Source: an uncultured Candidatus Saccharibacteria bacterium (lineage in GTDB: Bacteria; Patescibacteriota; Minisyncoccia; UBA6257; JACOXY01). Taken from it: a stretch of 64,000 nt of DNA. The notes under the pieces are model-generated. The model did not search any database and had not been told where the DNA came from. It saw nothing but the letters and a program-made list of their open reading frames with translations. The stretch is taken from positions 24,064 through 88,063 of the forward strand of contig CAYHMC010000005.1 in the NCBI GenBank assembly GCA_964357615.1, read 5' to 3'. Positions 14,835 to 59,185 of the stretch are shown one piece after another. Position 1 is the stretch's first letter. The number at the start of each line of letters is the position of its first letter. Made by a program: the position numbers and the translations under genes.

Positions 14835-14862
14835 GAATGAAGATATGATAATATCTTCATTC
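14835..14862. terminator. Perfect hairpin GAATGAAGATAT-gata-ATATCTTCATTC (12-bp stem) just after the 3' end of gene 14880..15236
   Basis: Inverted repeat read directly from the sequence, located about 18 nt beyond the minus-strand gene's stop. Position is consistent with a 3'-end/termination hairpin. Confidence 0.5.
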
Positions 14863-14879
14863 TAAATTCAATCACTTTT

Positions 14880-15236
14880 TTAATTTCTCGTTTTCAAAGA
14901 AAAAGTGTTGTTCCAAAATAACATTTTATTATTCTTATCTAGTTTTCCAAGCGCGATTGAGATTGCAGTTCTTGAATCATAACAATTAAATGCGTTGTAA
15001 ATTTGATCGATTGTCAACCATCTATGAAGCAGTAATCCAGAAATTCTTTGACACAGATCTTCCATATAAACTCTTTCATTTGGAAATGAATCACCAGTGT
15101 GTTCATTTTCCGCATCAAAATCAACAACATGAATTCTATCGAAATGCTGACCGACATCGTTTTCATGATTGATTTCAACGTCGTATTCGTATTCATTAAC
15201 TTCTTCGGTTTTAGTAGCTTTAATAACTTTACTCAT
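14880..15236 (-). CDS. Hypothetical protein (118 aa)
   Basis: ORF with class-1 motif upstream (15251..15290) and a hairpin downstream. Confidence 0.4.
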   Translation of the reverse strand: MSKVIKATKTEEVNEYEYDVEINHENDVGQHFDRIHVVDFDAENEHTGDSFPNERVYMEDLCQRISGLLLHRWLTIDQIYNAFNCYDSRTAISIALGKLDKNNKMLFWNNTFSLKTRN

Positions 15237-15308
15237 TTTAATTTCGAATGAAAAATTTTTTAAAAATCATTTTTAAAAAATTTTTTTGAAAACATCTTTC
15301 AGTTTTAT

Positions 15309-15989
15309 TTATTTTCGAATATATTTCAATGCAGATGGATTCTTTTTAGCAACTTCTAATATTTTTTCAGTTTGATTTTCAACATATTTCAGAATATATC
15401 CATTTTCTTTTATTGCTTCTAAACAGATTTCTTCGGTTTGATTTTTAACAAATTGTAATGCATAACTATTACATTTTACAGCTTCGAAACAGATTTCTTC
15501 GGTTTGATTTTTAACAAACTTTAATGCCAATCCGCACGTTCTAACAGCTTCTAAACAGATTTTTTCCGTTTGTTTTTTAACATTAACTAACGAATAACCA
15601 TCTCGTTTTACTGCTTCTAAACAGATTTTTTCAGTTTGATTCTTGACAAATAATAAAGAACATCTATTCTTCTTTACAGCTTCAAGACAGAAGTTTTCAT
15701 TTTCCCACTCATTCCAATCCTTCAAATCGATAATTTTTTCGATGAAGATGGAATCCGCTTTACTTTTATTTTTATTTTGGAAATGACAAACTTTTGCTGT
15801 TTCGGGAATAGAAACAAAAGCCAGTTTTGTACCAAAACTTAACCATTCAGGAACATCTTCTTTCCTACAGAAATGAAGACCATTCTCACATTCTTCATCG
15901 TTGAAGACAGAAGTATCGATATTCAACCCTAATTTGTATTGAAACCTATGATGATTCATTTTATCATTCAAAACCTTATAATATTGCAT
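15309..15989 (-). CDS. DUF4116-like 22-aa tandem-repeat protein with conserved MQYYKVLN N-terminal domain (226 aa)
   Basis: N-terminal ~110 aa MQYYKVLNDKMNHHRFQYKLGLNIDTS...GLHFCRKEDV...KLAFVSIPETAKVCHF, then about 5 repeats of VKNQTEKICLEAVK.NGY.L.YV. The repeat resembles Pfam DUF4116, from memory. Class-1 motif upstream (15990..16026) overlaps the stop of the next gene. Confidence 0.65.
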   Translation of the reverse strand: MQYYKVLNDKMNHHRFQYKLGLNIDTSVFNDEECENGLHFCRKEDVPEWLSFGTKLAFVSIPETAKVCHFQNKNKSKADSIFIEKIIDLKDWNEWENENFCLEAVKKNRCSLLFVKNQTEKICLEAVKRDGYSLVNVKKQTEKICLEAVRTCGLALKFVKNQTEEICFEAVKCNSYALQFVKNQTEEICLEAIKENGYILKYVENQTEKILEVAKKNPSALKYIRK

Positions 15990-16025
15990 TTAAAAATTTT
16001 TTCAAAAAATTTTTAAATTCATTTT

Positions 16026-16847: not shown

Positions 16848-16882
16848 TTAAAAATTTTCAAATAAAATTTTTAAATTCATTT

Positions 16883-17824: not shown

Positions 17825-17859
17825 TTAAAAATTTTTAAAAAAATTTTTAAATTCATTTT

Positions 17860-20800
17860 TTATTTAATATTCAACTTCAAAAGAAGTGTGTTTAATTCTG
17901 TAAAAAGGAGTTTACTTGCATAAGGTATCGTTACCCATTTAATATCATTTTCTTTGCAACTTTGACAACTAGTCTCATTGGCAACCATAATTTCACATTT
18001 TTTACAAACTGGAATTTTAAAAGGATCAGAAACTTTAAATAATCTTTCATTAATAACAGAAGCGACACCATGGGCAACTAATGCATCTCTTTCCATTTCA
18101 CCAAGTTTTAGACCACCGTCTCTACTTCTGCCTTCGAGTGGTTGTCTTGTTAAATTAGTGAGACTTCCTCTTGCACGTGCATGCATTTTATCAGAAACCA
18201 TGTGTTTCAATCTCTGGTAATAAGTTGGTCCCATGAAGATTTTCGATTGAAATCTTTCTCCTGTGATACCACAATACATAGTTGTCCATCCGTATGGATC
18301 TATATACGATCCAGTCTTTGAATTGAATCCATTCTTTTTCAATCTTTCAACCAACTTATCAGCTACATTAACACTCGATTCTGTGAATGGTGTTGCATCT
18401 GCAAATGAACCTGTTTCTAAACATTCTTTTCCAAGAACACATTCAATAAGTTGATTGATTGTCATACGTCCTGGAATACAACATGGATTAATAATGATAT
18501 CTGGAACCATTCCATCTGCTGTTCTAGGCATATCGATCTCTGGAATAATAGCACCAACCGTAGCTTTCTGAGAAGATCTCGCTGCGAACTTATCTCCTAA
18601 AGTTGGTTGTCTCCATTCTCTAATTACAATTTTAATTACTTTGTAACCATTCGGATTGATTGAAACATGAACCCTATCAATGGTTCCTTCTTGATCTTGA
18701 TGAATGATGATACTTTCGTCTGTCTTTGTGTATTCACTATTTTTATTTCCAGAACAGATCACTTTTCCAATGATGACATCACCTTTTTTAACAAAGGTGC
18801 ATTCACCGTAGTATTCACCTTTTTCATTTCTGAATTTTCTAGGTCTAACAATTCCGTTTTCATCGAGCAGTGCATAGTTTGCATTTTTTCTTTTAAAAAA
18901 CTTTGTATCTGTATCTTTAATTCCAACTGTTGAAGCAGGTGGTAAACAAATTTCTTCGTAACTATAAGTATCTCTCTTTTTCTCACAGTATTCAATGGTG
19001 TAATAAGAAGTAATAGCGAATAACCCACGTTCAACAGAGGCTTTATTTAGCATACAAGAATCTTCTTGATTGTAACCCGAAAGCGCAGCGATCGCAACTA
19101 TCGCATTTAGACCAGAAGGCATTTCGTGTAGTTTTAGATACTTTGCGAGTTTGGTCGAGACAAGAGGTTTTTGTGGATAATGAAGAACATATAGATTTGT
19201 ATCTGTTCTAATGTTGTATGATTGAAGAGGAATTCCTAAAGCTTGCTTACCCATACTCGATTGGTAGCAGTTTCGTGGAGATTGGCTATGATCTGGAAAC
19301 GGAATACAACCAGCCATAATTCCAAGCATAACAAATGGATGAATCTCACAGTAATCATTCTGTTGAATCGCAAGATCTTTTTGAGTCATAGCAAGAACTT
19401 TGAATTCGATTTCAGATGGATCTAGAAATTCAACAAGTGAATTTTTAACAAGATCATTCCAATCATACTTTTCTTTGCGTTCAATAATCATTTTATTATT
19501 TTCAAGTCGCAATAAAGGTCTAATTAATCTTCCTTCATCACAGAAAATTCTTATTTCTTTGTCAACAGGATCGTAACTTATAGAAACTTCATAATTGATT
19601 ACCTGTGCACGTCTGAGTTTTAAAAATTTTGAAATTAATTTAACATGATCGTTTGTAAATCCAACAATACAACCATTCAAAAGAACGGGAATGAATACAA
19701 AATCGTATTTACAATCGTTTTCAACATCGAAGTTGTCGATTTGAATAATTTCTGGTAACTTATCAAGCACATTTCTAACTACAATTTTTTGTGTCTTTTT
19801 AGTGATATTTGCAGTCATTGATAGATTGAGAACTGTTCCAACTTTTTGACCTTCTGGAGTTTCACATGGACAAATGAAACCGTAACTAGACCCATGAATC
19901 TGTCTGATAGCAACGTTTTTTCCTTCTTTCTTACCAACAGGAATAATGATTCTTCTAAGATGTGAAAGAGACGATGCATATGTCATTCTATCAAGAACCT
20001 GTGAAACCCCCATTTTAACATACGAACCATTTTTCTGAACATTCCATGTTCCAGTGGCCATGCATTGATGAAGACCTTTTGTGATGATATTATTATTTTT
20101 GATGATGAGTGAAAGTATATCTGGTTTTTGTTTAAGTGTTGTAATACGGGATGAAATGGTGTTAATAAATTTTTTAAAAAGATTACAAAAAATTTCCGAA
20201 AAAAGCATTCCAGTGCTTTCAATTCTTTTGTTAATATAATTATCTTTACTATCTTCAGCTCTGTCTTTCTTCAAGGTTCTAAAAAGTTTATTGATCATCA
20301 TTCCAAAAAATAAAGATTGTTCCTTAATTGTGCCTGAAATTCCGAAATGAGGAAGAGATTCATTTTGAATTACTTGCCATGCATACTTGGTTTTTTCGTT
20401 ACTTGGAATTTCGTGAATGGCGTGATTAGCAATAAATTTCAAAGCTTCTTCTTGAGTTTCACAAATCAACGAATCTCTATAAATATAAAGAATTAGTTTT
20501 TCATACTTCGGATCTGGCTTGATTCTAATCAAATTACGAATATCTTTTTCTGATGGAAAACCAAACGCTTTAAAAAGAATTCCGGCTAAGATAGGTTTTC
20601 CGATATGAGGAAGAATAAATGAAATAGTTCTTTCATCGGTCTCAATAATTGCTTTAATCGAAACCGAATGATTGGTTTCATTTGACATTGAACGAACTTC
20701 AGCCGAATATTTGATCTTCTTTTCACCTTTTTGTTTGAAGACACAAATTTGATTATAAATTCCTCTCATCTGAGATACAACAGCTCTTTCTTTTCCTTTA

Positions 20801-21273: not shown

Positions 21274-21276
21274 TTT

Positions 21277-21322
21277 TAATTTTTTTTTCGAAAAAAAAAT
21301 TAAAATCATTTTTAAAAATTTT
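21277..21322 (-). promoter_or_regulatory. Class-1 upstream motif for RPB2
   Basis: In gene orientation reads TTTTTAAAAATGATTTTAATTTTTTTTTCGAAAAAAAAATTAAAA then ATG. Confidence 0.5.
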
Positions 21323-21330
21323 TATTGAGT

Positions 21331-22272: not shown

Positions 22273-22325
22273 TTTAATTTTTTTTTGAAAAAAATTAAAA
22301 ATCATTTTTTTATTTTTAAAAATAA

Positions 22326-22664
22326 ATGAAACTGGGATGGATTTTGTTTTCAATTGTTATTTTAATACTTTTAATTGTTTTGATTCTGGTTTTGATCTAT
22401 AAAAAGAAAGAAAAGTTTCTTTCGACAACAGACCAAACCCAAAACGAAAGTGATCGAAGTGATCGAAGTGACGGAGACGATTGGAACGATTGGAGCGATG
22501 ATTCTAGTATTTACAATGGTTTCGTCTTGATCGATTCGAAAACAAATCGTGTCAGAAACGATTTGATACCATCACTTCCAAAATCATCTAAATGGAGTAA
22601 AAGACGATATTTAGAAAGTAATAGAAGAAAACTTCCAATTGGGTTGCAACAAAACAATCTTTAA
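22326..22664 (+). CDS. Small membrane protein with acidic SDRSD/DDW-rich tail (112 aa)
   Basis: N-terminal TM ILFSIVILILLIVLILVLI; short direct repeats (SDRSDRSDGDDWNDWSDD). Start context aaaaataaATG. Confidence 0.35.
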   Translation: MKLGWILFSIVILILLIVLILVLIYKKKEKFLSTTDQTQNESDRSDRSDGDDWNDWSDDSSIYNGFVLIDSKTNRVRNDLIPSLPKSSKWSKRRYLESNRRKLPIGLQQNNL

Positions 22665-22691
22665 TTTTTTTAATTTTTGAAATTAAAAAAA

Positions 22692-23477
22692 TTATTTCGG
22701 TTTAGGAAAATTATTATTTCCACTCATCATCATGCTTGACACCATACTCATCATACTACCTAAATTTGGCTGTTCACCGTTGTTCATACTACCGACCATT
22801 GTATCAATTAATGATACAGCTTGCTTAGCATCTGGGTCGTCACCCACTTGATCTTTCAATGAACCAACCATTTTTTGAACAGACCCAAGTAATTTACTCA
22901 TATCCAATTGACCATTTTTAAGACCGCTTTCCATGCTTCCAAGTATATCTGTCATTAAACCAGATTTCATAAGCGACGAAATGGCTTCTGTTGGAGATGC
23001 ATTTGGATCGATATTTTTTCCTACTTTGTCAATCATATCGCTAAGAAAGTCTGTTTCACCAACTTTTTCGTCTTCATTTTTGTTTTCTGAAATATTTTTA
23101 AGAATGTTTTTAGCGTTTCCTGCAGGATCGAGAATAGCACTTATAGTTAGAAGATGTCTCCAGATAATAGGCTTCGTATCCGGATCTGCAATATCAAAAA
23201 CATGCGAGAAATTAATATAGACTTTATTAGAATAAGTAACTGTGTTTGTCTTGATTTTTGAAGAATTGTTTTCGTAGATTGCATCACGGTTCTGAACACA
23301 AAAATCACGAAAAATTGAAACATGTTTATCAATTGCTTCTACATGACCAATCTGGGTTTGATTAATTAATCTGTGATACAATCTAAGTGGTTTGTATTTG
23401 GAACCATAAACAGATGTGAGATCATTGACAAAATTACAAATAGTTCTAAATGCTAGAAAAGTAACTTCGTTATTCAT
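22692..23477 (-). CDS. Hypothetical protein (261 aa)
   Basis: ORF with Met/Ser-rich C-terminus; no recognisable motif. Confidence 0.4.
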   Translation of the reverse strand: MNNEVTFLAFRTICNFVNDLTSVYGSKYKPLRLYHRLINQTQIGHVEAIDKHVSIFRDFCVQNRDAIYENNSSKIKTNTVTYSNKVYINFSHVFDIADPDTKPIIWRHLLTISAILDPAGNAKNILKNISENKNEDEKVGETDFLSDMIDKVGKNIDPNASPTEAISSLMKSGLMTDILGSMESGLKNGQLDMSKLLGSVQKMVGSLKDQVGDDPDAKQAVSLIDTMVGSMNNGEQPNLGSMMSMVSSMMMSGNNNFPKPK

Positions 23478-23497
23478 TTTAAAAACATTTTTTATCT

Positions 23498-24145: not shown

Positions 24146-24192
24146 CTTTTATAATTTTGAAAATTATTTTAAAGATTAATTGAAAATTATAA

Positions 24193-26295: not shown

Positions 26296-27648
26296 ATGAA
26301 ATTGAGTGCTTCTTTACAATTTAAAATCGATTCTCATCCGACCCTTACGACATTGAGATCTTTTTCATATTCAACTAATAACCGATTTGAAAGTTTGTCA
26401 AAAAATCTGTCATCAAAAATAAAATTTGGTGGTTCTGCTTCTATTCCAATTCCGAGATTTTTTGATGGAAGCAAGGTTTGGAAAGATTACTTAAGCCCAA
26501 TAAGAAATCAACAAAGATGTGGTTCATGTTGGGCTTTCGCAAGCACAAGCACACTTGCAGATCGATTTAATATTCAATCGAAAGGAAAAATGAAAATAGA
26601 GCTATCACCAACCAAACTTATACTTTGTGATTTTCTTAAAGATGAAATATTAAATCAATCTTCTTTAGAAGAGAAAAACGATCTTAATATAAAAAGTATT
26701 AAAAATGGGGCTTGTCAAGGCAATAGTTTGATCGATGCTTGGAAATATTTATATATTATAGGAACCAATTCTGAAGCATGTGTTCCATATGATAAATCAC
26801 TTGGAAATAAACTCGATTTTACAAGCCTATCCAAGTTTGAAAAAGACGAACAACTTCCTCTATGTGATATCACAGGACCACTTGGTGATATGTGTGTCGA
26901 TGTCAGCATGGATAAATATTCTGGCTTTGAATATGGAACACCAGCTAGATTTTATAGATGTTTTCATTACTACAGTATACCTGGTGTTTCAAAAGATGGT
27001 GGAAGTGACATAAATATATGTTCAGATATATATCATTGGGGGCCTGTTTCAACTGGTATGATGATATATCCAGATTTCTATACTTTCGATGCTAAAAATG
27101 AAATATACGAATGGAATGGCAAAGATGGACCAATTGGCGGACACGCAATAGAAATAGTTGGATGGGGTGAGAAAGGCGATAAAAAATACTGGATAATAAA
27201 AAATTCTTGGGGTGATAATTGGGGTAGAAATGGTTATTTTTATATGATTCGAGGAAAGAACAATTGTCAGATCGAAGAGAATGTAATCAGTGGTCTTCCA
27301 GATTTCTTTTATTCAAAAACTTACACACTGGGCAATATCGGTTCGAATTGGTCTGAATCTGAAACCGATATTAAAAGTAGACAAAAGATAACAAATGATT
27401 ATTCTGTTTTTGCAGGTGGTATAGATCCAGAAACAGGGTTCACAAGAAGAACTATGATAACTAAACCGTGGTATAATTTCTCAACCCCAATATCTGTTTC
27501 AGAATTACCTAATTGGAAAACATTTATTGCAGGCAAAGATGTAGTTTCTAAAAAAAGAAAAAAAACTTATGTTTTACTGTTTACTTTTATAATTTTTTTG
27601 ATTATTGTAACGATGATTGTGAAAATCGTGTATTGTGTTAAAAAATAA
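26296..27648 (+). CDS. Papain-family (C1) cysteine protease, cathepsin-B-like, with C-terminal membrane anchor
   Basis: QQRCGSCWAFAST (Gln oxyanion plus catalytic Cys); GGHAIEIVGWG (catalytic His); IIKNSWGDNWGRNGYFYMIRG...NNCQIE (Asn/Trp block). C-terminal hydrophobic TYVLLFTFIIFLIIVTMIVKIVY. Real start probably ATG 26296 (MKLSASLQ); start context AAAAATAAAATG. Confidence 0.8.
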   Translation: MKLSASLQFKIDSHPTLTTLRSFSYSTNNRFESLSKNLSSKIKFGGSASIPIPRFFDGSKVWKDYLSPIRNQQRCGSCWAFASTSTLADRFNIQSKGKMKIELSPTKLILCDFLKDEILNQSSLEEKNDLNIKSIKNGACQGNSLIDAWKYLYIIGTNSEACVPYDKSLGNKLDFTSLSKFEKDEQLPLCDITGPLGDMCVDVSMDKYSGFEYGTPARFYRCFHYYSIPGVSKDGGSDINICSDIYHWGPVSTGMMIYPDFYTFDAKNEIYEWNGKDGPIGGHAIEIVGWGEKGDKKYWIIKNSWGDNWGRNGYFYMIRGKNNCQIEENVISGLPDFFYSKTYTLGNIGSNWSESETDIKSRQKITNDYSVFAGGIDPETGFTRRTMITKPWYNFSTPISVSELPNWKTFIAGKDVVSKKRKKTYVLLFTFIIFLIIVTMIVKIVYCVKK

Positions 27649-27670
27649 ATTTCAAAAAACTTTTTTGAAA

Positions 27671-28021
27671 TTAATAAGTGAAATAAGTTGGATTATAAGT
27701 TGAAATCAACGCGACAAAATCATCATCTGTAAGTTGATGTGTTAATTCAGCATTGTTGGTTGCTAAATTAATAATATTTTTCATAACCTGTATATTCTTA
27801 TCAAACATAACTTTATGTTTTTTAGCAAAAGAAGAAATTACTTCTGGATCATAAGTTAAAAGAGTTTCATTGCTTGGTTCTTCAATATTATAATTCCAAA
27901 AGGTAATGTGGTCTATCTCAAATGTAAAAGATGTTTCACGACAGCATGTTCTTGGTATGGTTTGATTATTTTGAGAAAGATAATAACAAACATAATAGAA
28001 AAAGTTTCCAGCAAATGACAT
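27671..28021 (-). CDS. Hypothetical protein (116 aa)
   Basis: ORF. A class-1-like motif lies upstream of a 32-codon ORF at 28031..28130 rather than directly at this start, so the start may be mis-set or the gene frameshifted. Confidence 0.3.
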   Translation of the reverse strand: MSFAGNFFYYVCYYLSQNNQTIPRTCCRETSFTFEIDHITFWNYNIEEPSNETLLTYDPEVISSFAKKHKVMFDKNIQVMKNIINLATNNAELTHQLTDDDFVALISTYNPTYFTY

Positions 28022-28743: not shown

Positions 28744-28779
28744 ATTTATTTTAAGTTAATTTAACTTAAAATTTAATTT

Positions 28780-34505: not shown

Positions 34506-34823
34506 ATGTCAACGAATGTATTTAAACTTGGATTTTTTGATTACGAAAATAATATTTTGTGCTCAGAAAAATTTGAAAAGAAAGTGAAAAGTATCATTAA
34601 AAAGAATATAACAATTATTCCAAGTGAGAAACTCAAAGAAATTTATTACAAGCTTGACAAGTATACTGAAAAATGTATCAACGAAATTGAGAGATCAAAA
34701 ACGGAAGATACAATTGGAAATTTAAGAGATGAAATAACGAATTTAAAAGACGAAATGAACCTGGCTTTTATGATTTCAACAATAATGATTAACATCAGCC
34801 TTTTTATGCATTTATTACATTGA
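34506..34823 (+). CDS. Hypothetical protein (105 aa)
   Basis: ORF followed immediately by a perfect hairpin. Confidence 0.35.
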   Translation: MSTNVFKLGFFDYENNILCSEKFEKKVKSIIKKNITIIPSEKLKEIYYKLDKYTEKCINEIERSKTEDTIGNLRDEITNLKDEMNLAFMISTIMINISLFMHLLH

Positions 34824-34850
34824 CAACTTTAACTTTTGGTTAAAGTTGTC
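34822..34850. terminator. Perfect hairpin GACAACTTTAAC-ttttg-GTTAAAGTTGTC (12-bp stem) overlapping the stop codon of 34506..34823
   Basis: Inverted repeat read from the sequence; its first bases are the GA of the TGA stop. Confidence 0.5.
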
Positions 34851-35084
34851 TATACCTGGTGTCAACAGCAAAGAAACACTACATCGAAGTTTGTAGCACC
34901 TAGAGACAACCGAATTATGATATTTCATAATATCGTAATATAGAAAAAAGTATTCAAAACAAGTCGTAATTTCATAATTACATTTCGAACTATTTTACAA
35001 CCCTAATTAATTTTTTTATATCAATACCATTAAAACGAATTTACTTTTCGTTTGAATTAAAAAAGAAATATTATAAACAAAAGA

Positions 35085-36232: not shown

Positions 36233-36264
36233 TTTCTTTTAAAAGAAAAATTTTTTAAAAGAAA

Positions 36265-37138: not shown

Positions 37139-37627
37139 ATGAGTTATGGAAATGTTACACCATTAAATGAGTTACCCGATCTTGAAGATTTAGAAAGAGG
37201 AGGTCATAACCCAAATCATAATCCTAATATGAATTTCAGAAATCAAGGTGACAGACCTAGCGATGAAGAAAAGTTTCAAAAATATTTAAGAAATCCGCAT
37301 AAACCACAAATTGAGGCGGGAATGAGTAATAATGGTTCGATTGGTATGATGACAGATATGATACCTTCTAATATGAATCAAGCAGAATATTATGCTAGAC
37401 AAGGCGGTAATCAGGTTCAGCAGATGCAATCACAGATGCAGATGCCAACTCATCAAGTAGAAAGGTTCACTCAGCCTTTCGGTAACTGTATTGATATTGC
37501 AAGGCATATTCAAGACTGCCCAATCTGTTCAAAGTTTTATAGTAGTGACAAAACAATTTATATTATTGTAATCGTAATTCTAGCCATAGTTACTTTACTT
37601 TTATTGAAAAGGGTTTTGAATGTTTAA
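37139..37627 (+). CDS. Q/N/M-rich protein with C-terminal TM anchor (162 aa)
   Basis: Low-complexity Gln/Met-rich centre (QVQQMQSQMQMP); C-terminal IYIIVIVILAIVTLLLL. Confidence 0.35.
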   Translation: MSYGNVTPLNELPDLEDLERGGHNPNHNPNMNFRNQGDRPSDEEKFQKYLRNPHKPQIEAGMSNNGSIGMMTDMIPSNMNQAEYYARQGGNQVQQMQSQMQMPTHQVERFTQPFGNCIDIARHIQDCPICSKFYSSDKTIYIIVIVILAIVTLLLLKRVLNV

Positions 37628-37665
37628 AAATAATTTTTTTAATAAAATTATTTTAAAAAAAGATA

Positions 37666-45838: not shown

Positions 45839-45875
45839 AAAATGATTTTAAAAATTTTTTTTAAAAAAAATAAAA

Positions 45876-46620: not shown

Positions 46621-46681
46621 AATTGAAAAGAAGCCATAAAATAATTTAATACACGCGAAAAATACATTTCAATCTTTATCG

Positions 46682-46713
46682 ATTTACGATACCAGAATTC
46701 TGGTATCGTAAAT
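46682..46713. terminator. Perfect 32-nt palindrome ATTTACGATACCAGAATTCTGGTATCGTAAAT (16-bp stem, EcoRI site at centre)
   Basis: Located ~60 nt downstream of the stop of the 45876 gene and immediately before the promoter motif of the next gene. Identical copy at 47761..47792. Confidence 0.55.
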
Positions 46714-46757
46714 TACTTTTTAAAAATGATTTTTAAAATTTTTTTTAAAAAATTAAA

Positions 46758-47760: not shown

Positions 47761-47792
47761 ATTTACGATACCAGAATTCTGGTATCGTAAAT
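47761..47792. terminator. Second copy of the perfect 32-nt palindrome ATTTACGATACCAGAATTCTGGTATCGTAAAT
   Basis: Part of a ~200-bp direct repeat (about 46560..46757 and 47640..47837) comprising the gene 3' end, hairpin and following promoter motif. Confidence 0.55.
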
Positions 47793-47794
47793 TA

Positions 47795-48389: not shown

Positions 48390-48432
48390 TTATTTAAGAT
48401 TTTTTTAATTTTTTAAAAAATTAAAAATTAGA

Positions 48433-50720: not shown

Positions 50721-50754
50721 TTTTAAAAAAATATTTTGATTTTAAATAGAAAGG

Positions 50755-51789: not shown

Positions 51790-51809
51790 AAAAAAATTAA
51801 AATATATAA

Positions 51810-52163: not shown

Positions 52164-52193
52164 TTTTAATTTTTAAAATTAAATTAAAATAAA

Positions 52194-54533
52194 ATGAACA
52201 ACTGTAATGAAAGAGATGTGCTAATATCGCTCGGTAATTCTTCACACTGCTTTAACCCTGAAGAAGTTAAGGAGTGGTTCAAAGTATCTTACGCGGATCA
52301 AAAAGAATTTGTTATTTTTACTCAAAACAGAAAGATTGTCTTTGAAAAATGGAAGAAAGATATTCCACATTTTCTTATTCCTCAACTAAATGGTATGGTT
52401 GATTTTAGTTTCAAAGACGCAATTAAGCATGAAAATAAAAAGTTTGAATTTAAAGCTTCAAAAGATAACCGTGTTTACTATTTATCGGAAAGTGAACACT
52501 CTTTACCTTATCGTTTTTTTTCCTTTACTATTATTCAAGGTGATGAAATAAAAGAGGTAATTCCCTCTAATCCTATTCTTGCAAAATGTGTTGATAAACA
52601 AGATTTTTTAAAAAACGATCTCGTCTTCAATAAAGATATTATTATTTTTTTCGTTACAAGTGTAAATCGAAAAGCTTTAGATGCTATTGAAAAGTTATTT
52701 AACGATGAATTCAAAAATACAGACCGTGCAATCCCTATACAAAAATTAAATTTAAATGTTAAGTTTATAAATGGTGTCACTCAGATCGTTAAAAAATATT
52801 TTAAAGATTACCCTGAAAGGGTATCAACTATAATTAAAAACATAAAATTTTTTATGGAAGATAAATCAACCCAACAAAGCGGAGTAACTTTTGGAAAATT
52901 TTTAGATATGAAACATATCGTTTCATTGTCTTCAAATGGGCTTCAAACAGTAAATACAGAATCGTATATGTGTGCAACAAAATCGAATATTAAAGAGCTG
53001 ATGAAAAGTAATTATTCATACGCCGTGAGAAAAGGGTCATTTAGATTGAATAGATACAAAAACTTACGACAAAACCCAGAAATACAAAACATGATTCTAC
53101 ATCCAGAACAGCAGGATCCTAACAATCCATTATTCGCAGAATATCAAGCTTTGGAAAATCAATACCAAGTCTTACTTAATAATCTTGACAACGCTGATCA
53201 TTGTCTTTATAAAGTTATTTATCACTACTGGATAGATGGGTTTGCAAAACTTATTGACGATTTCAATGTAATCAACCTGATCGAAATGCCATTACCAACT
53301 TTATTGATAAACAAGCACGATGTGTCTGTTATAACAACATATTATAAAGCTTTACCAAGTTCATTCATGGTCATCAGTGACACATACGAAGAAAGTAATG
53401 AAAACGGAATACAAGTTTTCTTAGAGACGAAAGAAAGGGAGCAGAAAGAAGAAGAAAAATTTGTTATGGTTGAAGATGAAAAAGAACGGAAGGAAAACGA
53501 AAGAACTTTTATATTGATAAATCCATTAACATATGCTCGAGCTAATATGAGTGATATTGGACCCGGAACGGTGTTTCAGATTAACGTAAAGAATTACAAT
53601 GGTGTTGAAAAGCAAGACGAGTTTATTAAAACTATTTTTGGTATAGGAATGAAAACGAAAATAAACAATACACTTATATATGAGAACGACAACAGTGTTA
53701 TACACTTCGAAAGTTTTGGTCAGGAATATAATCAAGACACATTCAACCCAGCTATATATTTGTATAAATTCAACCCTAATAATACGTTTGAATTTAATTT
53801 ATATAAAATTGCAAATTTTTATGAAGATGTTCGTGATATTGACGAAAAAGAAAATTATTACAAGTATCGTAATAAATTGGCATCTACCGATTTTATGATA
53901 GATTTTTTACAATCTGTAAGTGATGAAAGAGCAGAAAAAGATATTTTTATAAGACATTATTTGAAACAATCCACTGGTATCAAACTTAAAGATACACCAT
54001 CGAAAATTATTGTTATTGAAGATTATAAAAATAAGATCAACCTAGCAAGAGGAATTTACATATACACAACAGATGAAAAGGAAGTTAATGGTTACTTATC
54101 TAACGGGAACATAGAAGAGAAGGCGGAAACAGATGGGTATGATGATGATAAAATGATACTTTACAGAAACATGGATTTCAAGACTGATGATGGGGTTACA
54201 AGCATTCCATTTAAAATAGGAAATCATTGTTTATTGCCTGGGTTAACATTAATCATTTGTGATGATTTAATTCAAGGCAGAATTATACTTAATAAAAACA
54301 AAATTATTCCTTTATTTATTTTTTATGAAATAGAAGATGTTCAAGACGGAATTAACGATGGTGATGTTGAAAATGAAGATGCAGATGTTGATATAGAAGA
54401 GGATGAAAATGAAAGTAATGAAGGCAATGAAGGCGATGAAAGTAATGAAGGAGACGAAGGTGATGAAAGCGGAAATGAGTATGAAGGCGATGAAGGAGAC
54501 GGAAATGATGATCAGTTAATGTCAGATTTATAA
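52194..54533 (+). CDS. Paralog family A member 1 (779 aa), unknown function, poly-acidic C-terminal tail
   Basis: Conserved with the next two genes: N-terminus M..CNDKDV.IS..N.S.CF.PEEVK.WF...YADQ; ...QLNGMVDF.FKDAIKH.N.KFEFKAS; internal HYLKQSTGIKLKDTPSKIIV; C-terminal DE/GNE repeats. Start context AAAATAAAATG. Confidence 0.6.
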   Translation: MNNCNERDVLISLGNSSHCFNPEEVKEWFKVSYADQKEFVIFTQNRKIVFEKWKKDIPHFLIPQLNGMVDFSFKDAIKHENKKFEFKASKDNRVYYLSESEHSLPYRFFSFTIIQGDEIKEVIPSNPILAKCVDKQDFLKNDLVFNKDIIIFFVTSVNRKALDAIEKLFNDEFKNTDRAIPIQKLNLNVKFINGVTQIVKKYFKDYPERVSTIIKNIKFFMEDKSTQQSGVTFGKFLDMKHIVSLSSNGLQTVNTESYMCATKSNIKELMKSNYSYAVRKGSFRLNRYKNLRQNPEIQNMILHPEQQDPNNPLFAEYQALENQYQVLLNNLDNADHCLYKVIYHYWIDGFAKLIDDFNVINLIEMPLPTLLINKHDVSVITTYYKALPSSFMVISDTYEESNENGIQVFLETKEREQKEEEKFVMVEDEKERKENERTFILINPLTYARANMSDIGPGTVFQINVKNYNGVEKQDEFIKTIFGIGMKTKINNTLIYENDNSVIHFESFGQEYNQDTFNPAIYLYKFNPNNTFEFNLYKIANFYEDVRDIDEKENYYKYRNKLASTDFMIDFLQSVSDERAEKDIFIRHYLKQSTGIKLKDTPSKIIVIEDYKNKINLARGIYIYTTDEKEVNGYLSNGNIEEKAETDGYDDDKMILYRNMDFKTDDGVTSIPFKIGNHCLLPGLTLIICDDLIQGRIILNKNKIIPLFIFYEIEDVQDGINDGDVENEDADVDIEEDENESNEGNEGDESNEGDEGDESGNEYEGDEGDGNDDQLMSDL

Positions 54534-54559
54534 ATTTTTTAAAAAAATTTATAAATAAA

Positions 54560-56848: not shown

Positions 56849-56883
56849 TTTTTCAAATTATTCTAAAAAATTTTTTAGAATAA

Positions 56884-59118
56884 ATGAGCAAGTGTAACGA
56901 TAAAGATGTTATGATATCTTACGAAAATAAGACTTATTGTTTTTCACCAGAAGACGTGAAAGAGTGGTTTGAGATACCTTATGCCGATCAGAAAGGTGAA
57001 ATAAGTTCACTTTCGGAAAATAAAAAAAATGTTTTTGAGACATGGAAGAAAACACAACCAAAATTTCTTATTTCCCAGCTTGATGGTATGGTTGATTTTA
57101 ATTTCAAAGATATGATCAAAAATGGTGTGAACAAATTTGTTATTAACCGGTCTTCAAAGTCATATTTCTACTTGAACGAAAGTCAATATAACATACCGTA
57201 TCTCATGTTTGATTTTGATGAGATTAAAAATAACGAAGAAAAAGAAAAAGAAATAAAAGAAAGAATTCCGTCTTTCTCAATGCTTGAGAAATGTTATAAC
57301 AAAAAAGATTTATTAGAAAACGATATTGTGTTTGACAATAACACGATTGTTTTCTTTATTACGAAAATCCATCGTCAAGCTTTACGTGAGGTTGAAAATT
57401 TATTGGAAGAATGGATTAATAAAAATATGTTTTTTTATTTATATTTAGAAGAACTTGAATTTAAACCTATGATTACGAGTGAACTTTCTCTTATTGTTAA
57501 AAAATATTTCAAAGATTACGTTACAAGAGCATCAGCTATAATCAGAAATTTTAAGATGTTAACGAGTAACTCCAACTTTGTAAAGAAGACACTAACTGTC
57601 TCAAATTTTTTAAAATCTGGTGATATGAAATCTTTAATCGCAACTGAGCTTCAGATTGTAGATATCGATTCCTACAACTGTATTACAATATCAGATATCA
57701 ATAGAATAATGAAAGAAGAATATAGGGTAAATCAAGGTTCGTTTAATTATTATAGATATTTGCATCTTGAAAATACGTTGCAAGATGAAATTAAAAATTA
57801 CAATGATGGTGTAAATATTTTTCAATTTGATGATAATCCTTTATTCAAGGAGTATGTGGAATTACTGGAAGAATATAGAAGACTTGAAAGTATGTTAACT
57901 GATAAAAAAAGTGTTCGTTTCTGTAAACTTTTATATTATTGGATTGAAGACTTGGACAGTGTCATTAGAAATAAATTTAATACAATCAACCTTGTTGAGA
58001 TGCCTAATAACGTGATTTTATTTGGTAAGCAAAAAACCGATTTCAAAACGATATATTACAAAGCATGTCCAAGTTCACGTCTTATGATTTCAAACGAAAA
58101 TGATAATTTTCAAATGAAAGATACGTTTAATATCTTTGTTTTGATTGAAGATGAAAAACAAAGAAACGAAGATGAAAAGATGTTTAGATTATTTAACACA
58201 TCTACAAATCAGTTTGTAAAATATAGAGAAGAGGAAGATAATATTGAAGGTGGTATGATGGTAGAAATGAAAATAAAATATTTTAATTTCGGTATTGAAA
58301 AGAAAGATGAATTCTTTAAAATTCCAGATCCTAAAAATGATCGCCTAGGATTTGGAATGAAAACATTAGTAAATAATAAAATGATATATGAAAACAGTCG
58401 TAAACCCGTATTTTCTGTTTTTGGAAAGGAATATATTATTGACACTTACAAGGCCATATATGTGTATTCGTTCGATGCAAATAATATCATTGATCTGAAA
58501 GTTTTCAAAACCGAAAACGACTATTACGATCGTGAAAATTATGATAGAGATCACAATGAGTTGGCTGGCGAAGATGAATTTATGGCTGAATATTTAGAAT
58601 CTGAAGGCAAAGAAAGAGTTGAAAAAGATCTTTATATAAGAAATTATCTAAACGATATCACTGGTGTAAAACTCAAAGATACACCAACCAAATTGTTGAC
58701 TGGGCTTTTTGAAGATGGAATGACTGTACCAAAAGGTGTTTATATATACGTGAATGGCAACGATATGGAAGATGAAAGTCACATAACATCTGATATTGAA
58801 CGTGATGTAGAAACAAATGGATCTGACAATGATATACTATTACTTTATAGAAATATGGATTTTCAAGGTGATGGTGGGATTGTGAGTATTCCTGTTAAAA
58901 TAGGAAATCACAACCTCGAAAGCGGGGTAACTTTAATTATTTGTGATGACTTAGTTGAATTCAAATTTGCATTCAGTGCTGGAGGTAATTTAATGCCAAA
59001 ATTTGTCTATTATGAAATAGAAGATGTTCAAGACAGTCTTAAAGACGAAAGCGAGGACGAAGACAGAAGTGAAAATGAAGACGAAGACAGAAGTGAAAAT
59101 GAAGACAATGATATTTAA
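56884..59118 (+). CDS. Paralog family A member 3 (744 aa)
   Basis: Same conserved blocks (NYLNDITGVKLKDTPTKLL; acidic tail with 24-bp direct repeats). Preceded by perfect palindrome ATTCTAAAAAATTTTTTAGAAT and TAAATG. Confidence 0.6.
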   Translation: MSKCNDKDVMISYENKTYCFSPEDVKEWFEIPYADQKGEISSLSENKKNVFETWKKTQPKFLISQLDGMVDFNFKDMIKNGVNKFVINRSSKSYFYLNESQYNIPYLMFDFDEIKNNEEKEKEIKERIPSFSMLEKCYNKKDLLENDIVFDNNTIVFFITKIHRQALREVENLLEEWINKNMFFYLYLEELEFKPMITSELSLIVKKYFKDYVTRASAIIRNFKMLTSNSNFVKKTLTVSNFLKSGDMKSLIATELQIVDIDSYNCITISDINRIMKEEYRVNQGSFNYYRYLHLENTLQDEIKNYNDGVNIFQFDDNPLFKEYVELLEEYRRLESMLTDKKSVRFCKLLYYWIEDLDSVIRNKFNTINLVEMPNNVILFGKQKTDFKTIYYKACPSSRLMISNENDNFQMKDTFNIFVLIEDEKQRNEDEKMFRLFNTSTNQFVKYREEEDNIEGGMMVEMKIKYFNFGIEKKDEFFKIPDPKNDRLGFGMKTLVNNKMIYENSRKPVFSVFGKEYIIDTYKAIYVYSFDANNIIDLKVFKTENDYYDRENYDRDHNELAGEDEFMAEYLESEGKERVEKDLYIRNYLNDITGVKLKDTPTKLLTGLFEDGMTVPKGVYIYVNGNDMEDESHITSDIERDVETNGSDNDILLLYRNMDFQGDGGIVSIPVKIGNHNLESGVTLIICDDLVEFKFAFSAGGNLMPKFVYYEIEDVQDSLKDESEDEDRSENEDEDRSENEDNDI

Positions 59119-59143
59119 ATTTAAATCGGGTAGATTTAAATTT
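59117..59143. terminator. Hairpin AAATTTAAATC-gggta-GATTTAAATTT (11-bp stem) starting at the stop codon of 56884..59118
   Basis: Inverted repeat read from the sequence; first of two consecutive hairpins between convergent genes. Confidence 0.5.
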
Positions 59144-59147
59144 TAAA

Positions 59148-59185
59148 AAATGTAAAGCACGTTCAATTGAACGTGCTTTACATTT
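59148..59185. terminator. Perfect 38-nt palindrome AAATGTAAAGCACGTTCAATTGAACGTGCTTTACATTT (19-bp stem)
   Basis: Sits between convergent genes 56884..59118 (+) and 59199..60044 (-), 13 nt from the latter's stop. Candidate bidirectional terminator. Confidence 0.55.

What the first reader, a model, noticed from the sequence alone, without database searches (positions are those of the whole stretch)
14835..59185. Perfect hairpin palindromes placed exactly at gene 3' ends (hairpin-rule style termination signals)
Long perfect inverted repeats are improbable by chance even in AT-rich DNA because several contain G/C. Five were found. (1) 14835-14862 GAATGAAGATAT/ATATCTTCATTC after gene 14880-15236. 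(2) 34822-34850 GACAACTTTAAC/GTTAAAGTTGTC overlapping the TGA of gene 34506-34823. (3 and 4) 46682-46713 and 47761-47792, the identical 32-nt palindrome ATTTACGATACCAGAATTCTGGTATCGTAAAT after the two tandem DUF4116-like genes. (5) A double hairpin 59117-59143 plus a 38-nt perfect palindrome at 59148-59185 between convergent genes 56884-59118 and 59199-60044. Positioning matches the mimivirus/megavirus hairpin rule, in which transcripts end at palindromes just past the stop. This strengthens the Imitervirales-like interpretation and gives precise predictions for mRNA 3' ends.
Basis: seen in the sequence. Interest (0 to 1): 0.6.

Follow-up and report, generated by a model that had tools for sequence, protein, structure and literature searches.

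The report
Terminator-like hairpins between giant-virus genes
In this very compact, uncultivated giant-virus genome, short DNA palindromes that would fold into RNA hairpins sit mainly in the gaps that follow genes, which fits the transcript-ending "hairpin rule" already known from Mimivirus and several other giant viruses; it is a new example of a known signal, not a new kind.

Summary
All five palindromes exist and are far beyond chance. RNA-fold z-scores run from -3.7 to -11.7, and the window holds 30 perfect stems of at least 12 bp against 0.35 expected. They are the G/C-containing tip of a wider pattern.

- **Where palindromes lie:** in about 83 kb of the same virus, a perfect palindrome of at least 11 bp occurs in 30 of 55 tandem spacers, 8 of 11 convergent spacers and 3 of 15 divergent spacers.
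- **A confound:** many A/T-only palindromes belong to a palindromic promoter-like motif, AAAAATGATTTT, placed 30-41 nt before the ATG. These are not evidence for termination.
- **After removing it:** among motif-free spacers the contrast holds, 22 of 38 against 1 of 10.
- **Supporting evidence:** orthologous spacers in relatives are palindromic with unrelated sequences, and the window encodes an RNase III with intact catalytic motifs.

Corrections to the finding:
- Hairpins 3 and 4 lie 130-174 nt after the ORF stops. They are one duplicated element.
- The "38-nt" palindrome is 42 nt long. It belongs to a sequence-conserved family of 8 copies.
- Only 28-56% of genes comply with published hairpin criteria.
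- Canonical AAAATTGA is not enriched, and the rule is not specific to Imitervirales.

There are no transcript data. Verdict: a hairpin-rule-type 3'-end signal is likely (about 0.6), as a new member of a known kind.

The parts
14835..14862 (-). Hairpin 1: stem 12, loop 4, G/C-containing. It lies 17 nt after the stop of gene 14880-15236(-) and about 61 nt before the next ATG.
   Evidence: -13.3 kcal/mol, z = -3.7. The orthologous spacer in relative L004 is 44 nt long and lacks it.
34822..34850 (+). Hairpin 2: stem 12-13, overlapping the TGA of gene 34506-34823(+). A 261-nt non-coding spacer follows it.
   Evidence: -15.5 kcal/mol, z = -4.6. Identical in 4 assemblies.
46682..46713 (+). Hairpin 3: 32-nt perfect palindrome centred on GAATTC, in the 3' tail of DUF4116 gene 45876-46508. 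It lies 174 nt after the ORF stop and about 60 nt after the ancestral stop. Its centre is 30.5 nt upstream of the next promoter-like motif.
   Evidence: (-20.8 kcal/mol, z = -9.0).
47761..47792 (+). Hairpin 4: an identical copy of hairpin 3 in the duplicated tail of the second DUF4116 gene (ORF stop at 47631).
   Evidence: It is not an independent observation.
59117..59143 (+). Hairpin 5a: stem 11, loop 5, overlapping the TAA of gene 56884-59118(+), in a convergent spacer.
59146..59187 (-). Hairpin 5b: 42-nt perfect palindrome, 11 nt after the stop of gene 59199-60044(-). It is a member of the conserved-core family ACGTTCAATTGAACGT.
   Evidence: (z = -9.9 and -11.7 for the two strands).
22662..22694 (.). 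Convergent spacer that is palindromic from stop codon to stop codon (stem 15, loop 3, A/T-only).
   Evidence: run-shuffle p = 0.033; z = -3.8.
27648..27672 (.). Convergent spacer palindrome (stem 12, loop 1) at the 3' end of the peptidase C1 gene. The orthologous spacer in L004 is also palindromic, with a different sequence.
   Evidence: z = -2.9.
48402..48427 (.). Convergent spacer palindrome (stem 13, loop 0, A/T-only). It is weak energetically.
   Evidence: z = -0.1.
37627..37654 (.). Convergent spacer palindrome (stem 11, loop 6, A/T-only).
   Evidence: not significant on its own.
54526..54556 (+). Tandem spacer without the promoter-like motif. The palindrome (stem 15, loop 1) starts 5 nt before the stop codon, includes it, and ends 3 nt before the next ATG.
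   Evidence: z = -3.4.
56858..56883 (+). Tandem spacer without the promoter-like motif. The palindrome (stem 13, loop 0) ends at the base before the next ATG.
   Evidence: run-shuffle p = 0.013; z = -4.1.
8804..8833 (-). Motif-free tandem spacer palindrome (stem 13, loop 4).
28748..28772 (-). Motif-free tandem spacer palindrome (stem 12, loop 1).
   Evidence: run-shuffle p = 0.033.
62440..63741 (-). Gene for a 433-aa RNase III-like protein. It has the ExxExxGD and DxxE catalytic motifs, a segment read by eye as a dsRNA-binding motif, and a C-terminal ankyrin-like region. It is the candidate enzyme for cutting the hairpins.
   Evidence: (PF00636, E = 7e-10).

Best explanation
**What it is.** The window comes from an uncultivated, A/T-rich giant virus (30% GC) from groundwater. 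It encodes its own RNA polymerase subunits, and its genes are packed 20-45 nt apart.

**Proposed mechanism.** The palindromes that follow stop codons act as transcript 3'-end signals of the Mimivirus 'hairpin rule' type. This covers the five in the finding and about twenty A/T-only ones in promoter-motif-free and convergent spacers.
1. The viral polymerase reads through the stop codon.
2. The nascent RNA folds into a hairpin.
3. A virus-encoded RNase III (gene 62440-63741) recognises and cuts the hairpin.
4. A poly(A) polymerase extends the cut end.

Between convergent genes, one palindrome or a pair serves both transcripts.

**Shown here:** the palindromes, their excess over chance, their bias towards spacers with a 3' end, their positional conservation without sequence conservation, and the RNase III gene.

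**Inferred only:** that they act as RNA, that RNase III cuts them, and that poly(A) is added there.

**A separate class.** Many A/T-only palindromes in tandem and divergent spacers are part of a promoter-like module. Its consensus is T-rich, A6, TGA, T4, A5, T8, then an A-run up to the ATG. These should not be counted as terminators.
For: **Excess over chance.**
- 30 perfect stems of at least 12 bp against 0.35 expected.
- significant folding z-scores for the five palindromes and for several A/T-only spacer hairpins.
- best stems exceed even run-length-preserving shuffles in tandem spacers (combined p = 2.5e-6) and convergent spacers (p = 0.007), but not in divergent spacers (p = 0.11; combined).

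**Location.**
- density per kb is 0.2 in coding, 11.2 in tandem and 24.1 in convergent spacers (intergenic against coding, Fisher p = 3e-41).
- sliding-window fold z-scores dip at +10 to +30 after stops. Convergent spacers are more structured than divergent ones (p = 0.001), though the windows overlap.
- (83 kb of the same virus): a palindrome of at least 11 bp in 30 of 55 tandem, 8 of 11 convergent and 3 of 15 divergent spacers. Tandem plus convergent against divergent gives p = 0.0086; convergent against divergent gives p = 0.010.
- in spacers without the promoter-like motif, 22 of 38 against 1 of 10 (p = 0.0077).
- pooled over six sequence sets, convergent 13 of 21 against divergent 8 of 32 (p = 0.008).
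- the same trend in relatives sharing only 52-56% RPB2 identity.

**Conservation of structure, not sequence.**
- three syntenic spacers (HMG to 506-aa gene, 506-aa gene to peptidase C1, peptidase 3' end) are palindromic in the window, in L002 and in L004, with unrelated sequences.
- copies of the conserved-core palindrome extend their pairing 2-13 bp beyond the 16-nt core, using different flank sequences.
- all 8 copies lie 11-95 nt after a stop. Two are in convergent spacers and none in a divergent one.

**Enzyme and precedent.**
- an RNase III domain with intact catalytic motifs, encoded in the window.
- PMC4402537: Mimivirus R343, an RNase III-like protein, cleaves such hairpins.
- PMC5413956 and PMC5871332: the rule extends to Marseilleviridae and a klosneuvirus.
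Against: - There are no transcript data, so no 3' end has been mapped.
- Per kilobase, perfect palindromes of at least 10 bp are about as frequent in divergent spacers (9.2 per kb) as in tandem ones (11.2 per kb). The promoter-like motif explains this.
- Only 28% of genes meet the criterion of stem at least 13 bp and loop at most 5 nt. Only 53-56% meet stem at least 10 bp and loop at most 10 nt. Moumouvirus reaches 78% (PMC3542560), though my criterion required perfect stems.
- Sense and antisense strands fold equally well and carry equal numbers of G:U pairs. Nothing therefore shows that selection acts on RNA rather than on DNA symmetry.
- The 42-nt palindrome and its 7 siblings share an invariant core, unlike the classical sequence-free signal. 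In four tandem cases they end only 10-13 nt before the next ATG, where a promoter would be expected.
- No poly(A) polymerase was seen in the 83 kb examined.
- The RNase III has one catalytic domain plus an ankyrin-like tail. R343 has tandem RNase III-like domains (PMC4402537).
- Hairpin 1 is absent from the orthologous spacer of L004.
- Six G/C-containing palindromes of at least 12 bp lie inside coding sequence and remain unexplained.
Confidence: 0.62

Rival explanations
1. **Promoter or composition by-product.** The spacers are made of alternating A-runs and T-runs because of a palindromic promoter module (A6-TGA-T4-A5-T8-A-run). Palindromes arise as a side effect and have no role in 3'-end formation.
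For: -: AAAATGAWTTT occurs 27 times against 3.75 expected.
- 24 intergenic copies are phased 30-41 nt before the ATG, with an alternating A/T-tract consensus.
- many best palindromes centre on the motif or directly follow it, for example 15251-15285 and 21274-21305. The same architecture appears in divergent spacers (12398-12448, 22273-22325).
- per-kb density is similar in divergent and tandem spacers.
- under a run-length-preserving shuffle, only 8 of 34 tandem spacers remain individually significant.
Against: - None of the five palindromes in the finding contains the motif, and each has 6 or more G/C.
- Among motif-free spacers, 22 of 38 with a 3' end are palindromic against 1 of 10 without one.
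- Convergent spacers need no promoter, yet 8 of 11 are palindromic, often from stop codon to stop codon.
- In long tandem spacers the G/C hairpins lie upstream of the motif and separate from it.
Confidence: 0.1
2. **DNA-level elements.** The G/C-containing, loop-free palindromes are recognised as double-stranded or cruciform DNA. This applies above all to the conserved-core family ACGTTCAATTGAACGT and the 32-nt GAATTC-centred family. They could be binding or crossover sites for a dimeric protein, such as the serine recombinase encoded beside the cluster. They could also be small palindromic repeats that spread between genes, like bacterial REP elements or integron attC sites.
For: -: 8 exact copies of a 16-nt core within about 14.5 kb, with only 1 in the 64-kb window.
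- a resolvase-family gene (L007 314-1468) lies 43 nt upstream of the first copy.
- the genes flanking the copies are partly unrelated, so co-duplication with genes does not explain every copy.
- spacers with G/C palindromes are longer (median 82 nt against 38.5 nt), as if sequence had been inserted.
- hairpin 1 is absent from the orthologous spacer of a relative.
- no G:U strand asymmetry.
- the palindromes are perfect, have no loop, and centre on AATT.
Against: - All 8 copies lie after a stop codon and none is in a divergent spacer or in coding sequence.
- Pairing extends beyond the conserved core with different sequences. A structural hairpin predicts this; a fixed binding site does not.
- Sequence-unrelated palindromes occupy the same kind of position genome-wide and in relatives.
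- No target-site duplications or longer shared element borders appear in the alignment.
- The core is not multicopy in any IMG/VR contig.
Confidence: 0.15
3. **Intrinsic termination.** Hairpin plus U-tract makes the viral polymerase stop and release, as at bacterial rho-independent terminators. There would be no RNase III cleavage and no polyadenylation inside the hairpin.
For: -: the three strongest terminator-like hits in 44-64 kb are exactly the finding's palindromes 59146, 46681 and 47760, each followed by a T-rich tail.
- the sequences after these hairpins read ACTTTTT and AATTAGTTTTTTT.
Against: -: the total count is not significant (13 against 6.8 +/- 3.3 expected), and T-rich tails are expected anywhere in a 30% GC spacer.
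- Hairpins 1, 2 and 5a lack a clean U-run directly after the stem.
- Most A/T-only stems are weak, at -5 to -8 kcal/mol.
- The virus encodes an RNase III, and in Mimivirus the experimentally tested mechanism is cleavage (PMC4402537).
Confidence: 0.1

Closest known systems
Mimivirus/Megavirus 'hairpin rule' (Byrne et al. 2009; machinery in PMC4402537)
   Same: - A/T-rich giant virus with its own transcription machinery.
- Hairpin-forming palindromes after stop codons.
- Sequences not conserved between orthologous spacers, while palindromy is.
- A virus-encoded RNase III.
   Different: - Spacers here are 20-45 nt, so a hairpin often runs from the stop codon to the next ATG and overlaps the next promoter.
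- Only 28% of genes meet the Mimivirus criterion of stem at least 13 bp and loop at most 5 nt.
- The RNase III has one catalytic domain plus an ankyrin-like tail, not tandem RNase III-like domains.
- No adjacent poly(A) polymerase was found.
- The AAAATTGA promoter is replaced by AAAATGAWTTT.
- Polyadenylation was not tested.
Marseilleviridae partial hairpin rule (Noumeavirus, PMC5413956)
   Same: - Palindromes are enriched between ORFs.
- The enrichment tracks upstream stop codons whatever the orientation of the downstream gene.
- Compliance is partial.
- An RNase III homologue is present.
   Different: It is a different virus family, and one polyadenylation site was confirmed experimentally there. 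Nothing has been confirmed here.
Medusavirus palindromic immediate-early promoter motif (PMC8557863)
   Same: A sequence-conserved palindrome in spacers close to start codons. This resembles the ACGTTCAATTGAACGT family, which ends 10-13 nt before four ATGs.
   Different: The Medusavirus motif is found in divergent spacers and never in convergent ones (22 of 115 against 0 of 88). Here the pattern is the opposite: 2 copies in convergent spacers and 0 in divergent ones. Overall, convergent spacers are palindromic in 8 of 11 cases and divergent in 3 of 15.
Bacterial intrinsic terminators and REP/attC-type extragenic palindromes
   Same: Hairpins after ORFs, some followed by T-rich tails. One family is repeated with a conserved core beside a recombinase gene.
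   Different: This is a eukaryote-infecting virus and most stems are A/T-only. The elements show no element borders or target duplications, and the terminator-like count is not significant.

Membership tests
Giant-virus 'hairpin rule' 3'-end signal | Hairpin-forming palindromes concentrated between ORFs rather than inside them | tested here: met
   0.2 per kb in coding against 9-24 per kb in spacers (Fisher p = 3e-41); 30 observed against 0.35 expected from shuffles.
Giant-virus 'hairpin rule' 3'-end signal | Association with an upstream stop codon whatever the orientation of the downstream gene; rare where only 5' ends meet | tested here: met
   tandem 30 of 55, convergent 8 of 11, divergent 3 of 15 (p = 0.009 and 0.010); motif-free spacers 22 of 38 against 1 of 10; pooled 13 of 21 against 8 of 32. 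Caveat: per-kb density of stems of at least 10 bp does not differ between tandem and divergent spacers, because of promoter-linked A/T palindromes.
Giant-virus 'hairpin rule' 3'-end signal | Signal defined by structure, not by conserved sequence | tested here: inconclusive
   Met for orthologous spacers in three viruses. Not met for the 42-nt palindrome, which shares an invariant 16-nt core with 7 other copies.
Giant-virus 'hairpin rule' 3'-end signal | High ('stringent') prevalence, e.g. 78% of Moumouvirus genes (PMC3542560); published criteria are stem at least 13 bp with loop at most 5 nt (Mimivirus) or stem at least 10 bp with loop at most 10 nt (Pithovirus) (PMC8557863) | tested here: not met
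   28% of 64 genes by the Mimivirus criterion and 53-56% by the Pithovirus criterion. Only perfect stems were counted, so this is a lower bound. Random coding windows score 1% or less.
Giant-virus 'hairpin rule' 3'-end signal | Poly(A) is added within the hairpin of the mature transcript | not testable with these tools
   No transcript data are available for this metagenomic virus.
Giant-virus 'hairpin rule' 3'-end signal | Virus encodes an RNase III-like enzyme able to cut the hairpin | tested here: met
   PF00636, E = 7e-10. ExxExxGD and DxxE motifs present; homologues and the RNase III fold. Activity was not tested, and the domain architecture differs from R343.
Giant-virus 'hairpin rule' 3'-end signal | Poly(A) polymerase in a conserved cluster with the RNase III (Mimivirus R341-R343) | tested here: not met
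   No poly(A) polymerase domain among the window's proteins or the flanking 20 kb. The rest of the genome is unavailable.
Mimiviridae early promoter AAAATTGA | Octamer AAAATTGA over-represented upstream of genes | tested here: not met
   14 copies against 34.8 expected, mostly in coding sequence. The variant AAAATGAWTTT, one base shorter, is enriched instead (27 against 3.75) and phased 30-41 nt before the ATG.
Palindromic promoter motif (Medusavirus type) | Present in divergent spacers and absent from convergent ones | tested here: not met
   Searches show the opposite distribution.
Bacterial-type intrinsic terminator | G/C-containing stem followed directly by a U-run, in excess over chance | tested here: inconclusive
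   13 hits against 6.8 +/- 3.3 expected. The top three hits are the finding's palindromes.
Mobile or recombination-site palindromic repeats (REP/attC-like) | Multicopy conserved element with defined borders, presence/absence polymorphism, and an associated recombinase | tested here: inconclusive
   Multicopy core and an adjacent resolvase-family gene. However, there are no shared borders and no multicopy occurrence elsewhere. Polymorphism was not tested.

The most novel reading that the evidence does not exclude
In this ultra-compact virus, termination and initiation may be fused into one palindromic module. A single 20-45-nt spacer would fold as the 3' hairpin of the upstream mRNA and also serve as the promoter of the next gene. 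The promoter would be either the palindromic AAAAATGATTTT motif or the core family. In addition, the family of hairpins with an invariant apex (C-AAUU-G on an ACGUUC/GAACGU stem) may be a sequence-specific substrate for the unusual RNase III-ankyrin protein. The precedent would be yeast Rnt1p recognising AGNN tetraloops. Alternatively, that family marks an integron-like array of small gene cassettes serviced by the neighbouring serine recombinase.
Probability: 0.12. Interest if true: 0.6.

Novelty: new member of a known kind. Interest (0 to 1): 0.33.

Why it matters
- **Reach of the hairpin rule.** If confirmed, hairpin-based 3'-end formation would extend to an uncultivated groundwater lineage. 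That lineage shares at most about 57% RPB2 identity with anything outside its own small clade.
- **Annotation.** The signals would give base-level predictions of mRNA ends for annotating giant-virus metagenome assemblies.
- **A caution for future screens.** The work shows how a palindromic promoter motif can mimic the terminator signal. Comparing convergent with divergent spacers, and setting aside motif-bearing spacers, separates the two. Screens of giant-virus MAGs for the hairpin rule should use the same control.
- **Overall.** For a specialist the result is expected rather than surprising.

Tried and rejected
- **Close relatives in IMG/VR.** A scan with RPB2 peptide patterns found none. 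Relatives were obtained instead through the protein search and contig look-ups.
- **Core palindrome in IMG/VR.** A scan for ACGTTCAATTGAACGT gave 15 single-copy hits. That number looks like the chance level for a 16-mer, which is my own estimate and was not computed.
- **RNA versus DNA selection.** The G:U and strand-asymmetry test showed no difference, with sense more stable in 38 spacers and antisense in 33 (p = 0.41). It is uninformative because the stems are nearly perfect.
- **Covariation in the AATT-centred palindromes.** The counts are high but largely circular, because the sequences were chosen for being palindromes. Only the flank extensions beyond the searched core are unbiased.
- **Literature.** A search for the motif string AAAATGATTTT found nothing relevant. 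Byrne et al. 2009 is not in the held library, so criteria were taken from papers that quote it.
- **Known RNAs.** tRNA and Rfam scans of the window found nothing.
- **Taxon names.** Cluster look-ups gave no names, so 'Imitervirales' could not be verified by name.
- **Bacterial-type terminator scan.** Not significant overall.
- **Rejected explanations.** Assembly artefact is rejected because of identical independent assemblies. Pure composition is rejected because of the run-length-preserving shuffles and the motif-free contrast.

Full report
**Context.** The window is 30% GC and densely coding.
- It has 64 ATG-ORFs of at least 50 aa. Most spacers are only 20-45 nt.
- Pfam identifies RNA polymerase subunits RPB2 (17860-21309, minus strand) and Rpb5, a eukaryotic-type topoisomerase IB, two protein kinases and a papain-like protease. 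It also finds a D12 DNA methyltransferase, helicases, sugar enzymes, five or more DUF4116 repeat genes and several virus-associated DUFs.
- The exact RPB2 sequence is carried on contigs from the Hainich groundwater metagenomes. The next relatives share 79-81% RPB2 identity (L001/L002, L004), and everything else is at or below about 57%.
- This is therefore an uncultivated giant virus of the nucleocytoplasmic large DNA virus type. Assignment to a named order could not be verified.

**The observation.** All five palindromes are present.
- Folding as RNA gives -13.3 kcal/mol (z = -3.7), -15.5 (z = -4.6) and -20.8 (z = -9.0). The double hairpin gives -34.1 and -33.2 kcal/mol on its two strands (z = -9.9 and -11.7).
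- Whole-window dinucleotide shuffles yield 0.35 perfect stems of at least 12 bp. The window has 30. For stems with at least 2 G/C per arm, the figures are 0.22 and 12.
- Palindrome 2 and the 261 nt after it are identical in four assemblies from three studies. The 42-nt palindrome recurs in another replicate assembly.

Corrections to the finding:
- The long palindrome in item 5 spans 59146-59187 (42 nt).
- Items 3 and 4 are one element in a roughly 125-nt tail that is identical between two tandem DUF4116 genes.
- The first of those genes carries a 2-nt insertion that creates an early stop at 46508. The second has an N-terminal frameshift and an in-frame stop at 47631.
- These palindromes lie about 60 nt after the apparent ancestral stop. 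Their centres are 30.5 nt upstream of the next promoter-like motif.

**The pattern is much wider than five.** A scan for perfect stems of at least 9 bp found 89.
- Almost every tandem or convergent spacer contains an A/T-only palindrome of 10-17 bp.
- In convergent spacers the palindrome often runs from one stop codon to the other, for example 22662-22694 and 27648-27672.
- Per spacer, the best stem exceeds dinucleotide shuffles in 20 of 34 tandem, 4 of 7 convergent and 4 of 12 divergent spacers.
- With a stricter null that keeps every homopolymer run, the numbers are 8, 3 and 1. Combined p-values are 2.5e-6, 0.007 and 0.11.
- A sliding RNA-fold z-score shows a dip at +10 to +30 after stop codons. 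Convergent and tandem spacers are more structured than coding sequence, while divergent spacers are not. The windows overlap, so those p-values are generous.

Upstream regions aligned at the ATG reveal a recurrent motif, AAAAATGATTTT.
- AAAATGAWTTT occurs 27 times against 3.75 expected, almost always in a spacer and oriented towards the downstream gene.
- In 24 intergenic copies the motif's G lies 30-41 nt before the ATG, with a mode of 31-32 nt.
- The consensus around it is a phased series of tracts: T-rich, A6, TGA, T4, A5, T8, then an A-run up to the ATG.
- The motif is itself a palindrome with a 1-nt loop, and the tracts that follow it create more.
- Several of the longest A/T palindromes centre on the motif or directly follow it (15251-15285, 21274-21305). 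The same architecture is present in divergent spacers (12398-12448, 22273-22325).
- With gene starts corrected for ATGs that are really part of the motif, perfect palindromes of at least 10 bp number 0.2 per kb in coding, 11.2 in tandem, 24.1 in convergent and 9.2 in divergent spacers.
- The canonical Mimiviridae octamer AAAATTGA is not enriched (14 against 34.8 expected). One relative does use AAAAATTGATTTTT at an orthologous promoter.

**Separating terminator-like from promoter-linked palindromes.** I added 20 kb of flanking sequence from the same virus (L007 1-10000 and L025 1-9990). I then counted spacers rather than bases.
- A perfect palindrome of at least 11 bp is present in 30 of 55 tandem, 8 of 11 convergent and 3 of 15 divergent spacers. 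Tandem plus convergent against divergent gives p = 0.0086. Convergent against divergent gives p = 0.010.
- Restricting to spacers without the promoter-like motif gives 22 of 38 against 1 of 10 (p = 0.0077).
- The single divergent exception (36224-36273) is a mirrored pair of promoters whose two genes both begin ATGGAAGAG.
- G/C-containing palindromes occur in 24 of 95 spacers with a 3' end against 1 of 22 without one, pooled with close relatives (p = 0.024).
- Pooling six sequence sets, including relatives with only 52-56% RPB2 identity, gives convergent 13 of 21 against divergent 8 of 32 (p = 0.008).
- This is the same convergent-against-divergent test that showed a Medusavirus palindrome to be a promoter (PMC8557863). 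Here it points the other way.

**Comparative evidence.** Three syntenic spacers are palindromic in the window, in L002 and in L004 with unrelated sequences.
- These are HMG-box gene to 506-aa gene, 506-aa gene to peptidase C1, and the peptidase 3' end.
- For example, TTTTTAAAAATGAATTTTAACATTTTTAAAAA, ATTTGATAAGTTTCTTATCAAAT and TTCATTTGTTTTGTTTCAAAACAAATGAA occupy the same spacer.
- In contrast, hairpin 1 is missing from the shorter orthologous spacer of L004.
- In long tandem spacers, G/C hairpins lie between the stop and the promoter-like motif.

**An unexpected family.** The 42-nt palindrome shares an exact 16-nt core, ACGTTCAATTGAACGT, with seven further copies in the 10 kb just beyond the window's end.
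- All eight lie 11-95 nt after a stop codon. Two are in convergent spacers and none is in a divergent one.
- Pairing extends 2-13 bp beyond the core with different flank sequences: GC/AAAA, GCC/TAA, AT/CAAAAT and GC/TTTACATTTTT.
- Four copies end only 10-13 nt before the next ATG, in spacers lacking the early motif.
- The first copy follows a resolvase-family recombinase gene.
- The upstream genes are only partly paralogous.
- The 32-nt palindrome has a third copy with one mismatch (L007 near 8170), and a homologous position is occupied by a core-type palindrome (L007 9148-9179). All are followed by TTACTTTTTAAAAATGATTTT.
- Nearly all loop-free palindromes centre on AATT. A formal pair count shows strong covariation but is largely circular.
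- This family departs from the 'no sequence conservation' feature of the classical rule. It keeps a DNA-level explanation alive.

**Machinery.** Gene 62440-63741 (minus strand) encodes a 433-aa protein with an RNase III domain (PF00636, E = 7e-10).
- It carries the ExxExxGD and DxxE catalytic signatures. A segment that I read by eye as a dsRNA-binding motif is not supported by any tool hit. It also has a C-terminal ankyrin-like region.
- Homologues are widespread in metagenomic giant viruses.
- In Mimivirus, the RNase III-like R343 cuts the 3' hairpins and sits in a cluster with the poly(A) polymerase (PMC4402537).
- Here no poly(A) polymerase was found in the 83 kb examined. The enzyme has one catalytic domain, not two.

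**Limits.**
- Compliance is partial. Using perfect stems only, 28% of 64 genes have a stem of at least 13 bp with a loop of at most 5 nt after the stop. By the looser criterion of stem at least 10 bp and loop at most 10 nt, 53-56% do. Moumouvirus is reported at 78% (PMC3542560).
- Genes whose convergent partners overlap have no spacer at all.
- There is no strand asymmetry in folding or in G:U use, so RNA-level selection is not demonstrated.
- Six G/C-containing palindromes of at least 12 bp lie inside genes. One is a 19-bp stem at 32938-32983 encoding the conserved helicase peptide TATPISSLMKEEIGVA.
- A bacterial-type terminator scan ranks the finding's palindromes first but is not significant overall.

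**Verdict.**
- The best-supported reading is a hairpin-rule-type 3'-end signal, with confidence about 0.6. It is layered over a separate, promoter-linked class of A/T palindromes.
- The phenomenon is already known from Mimivirus, Megavirus, a klosneuvirus, Pithovirus and Marseilleviridae (PMC4402537, PMC5871332, PMC5413956). This is therefore a new member of a known kind.
- It does not by itself argue for Imitervirales.

Noticed in passing
window, e.g. 3153-3163, 15263-15273(-), 45839-45849, 60071-60081(-); 27 copies in all: A promoter-like motif, AAAATGAWTTT, occurs 27 times against 3.75 expected. Its extended consensus is T-rich, A6, TGA, T4, A5, T8, then an A-run. In 24 spacer copies its G lies 30-41 nt before the ATG (mode 31-32 nt). 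The canonical Mimiviridae AAAATTGA is not enriched (14 against 34.8 expected). Relative L004 uses AAAAATTGATTTTT at one orthologous promoter.
   Followed up: partly
L007 1512-9179 (same contig, just beyond window position 64000) and window 59146-59187: Eight palindromes share the exact core ACGTTCAATTGAACGT, with variable but complementary flanks. All lie after stop codons. They are clustered next to a resolvase-family serine recombinase gene (L007 314-1468) and among small MORN-like repeat genes. IMG/VR holds only single-copy matches.
   Followed up: partly
window 36224-36273: A 21-bp-arm inverted repeat spans a divergent spacer and the first codons of both genes. DUF5770 35783-36232(-) and patatin 36265-37122(+) both start ATGGAAGAG. 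This is a mirrored promoter pair, not a 3'-end element.
   Followed up: no
window 32938-32983 and 4389-4428: Long perfect palindromes lie inside coding sequence. A 19-bp stem encodes the conserved helicase peptide TATPISSLMKEEIGVA and is still 16 of 18 palindromic in relative L002. An 18-bp stem lies 113 nt before the stop of ORF 3189-4541. With four others of at least 12 bp, they far exceed the shuffle expectation.
   Followed up: partly
window 45876-47631: Two tandem DUF4116 genes built of 66-nt (22-aa) repeats look damaged. Copy 1 has a 2-nt insertion giving an early stop. Copy 2 has an N-terminal frameshift (46758-46883 against 46828-47631) and an in-frame stop. Their 3' tails are 100% identical, although the coding parts are only 60-91% identical. 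I did not check whether these are true pseudogenes or assembly errors.
   Followed up: no
window 34851-35084: An unusually long non-coding spacer (261 nt in total) with higher G+C contains several small hairpins. The fold of 34815-35084 has z = -3.4, largely due to hairpin 2. There is no ORF, tRNA or Rfam match. It is 100% identical in four assemblies from three studies.
   Followed up: partly
window 62440-63741(-): The RNase III has an uncommon architecture: a catalytic domain, a possible dsRNA-binding segment and a C-terminal ankyrin-like region. Most metagenomic homologues are about 280 aa and lack the tail. Some of 550-566 aa carry a Pfam dsRBD.
   Followed up: partly
window 4553, 21309(-), 22305(-), 47805, 62431(-): Five longest-ORF start codons are really the ATG inside the promoter-like motif AAAATGATTTT. 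The true starts are probably the next in-frame ATG, 33-39 nt downstream. This agrees with the public gene calls where available, and with the shorter RPB2 of relatives.
   Followed up: yes
L002 14545-14574 and 15980-16109: Two hairpins in a relative follow neighbouring genes and differ by a mirrored T-A to C-G change. They are TTTTTGAAACTACAATTGTAGTTTCAAAAA and TTTTTGAAACCACAATCGTGGTTTCAAAAA. Whether the neighbouring genes are paralogues was not checked.
   Followed up: no
L029 (SRR25018355) and L030 (ERZ2272721) against window 34506-35090: The same virus genotype, 100% identical over about 300 nt including non-coding DNA, turns up in samples from studies other than the Hainich set.
   Followed up: no
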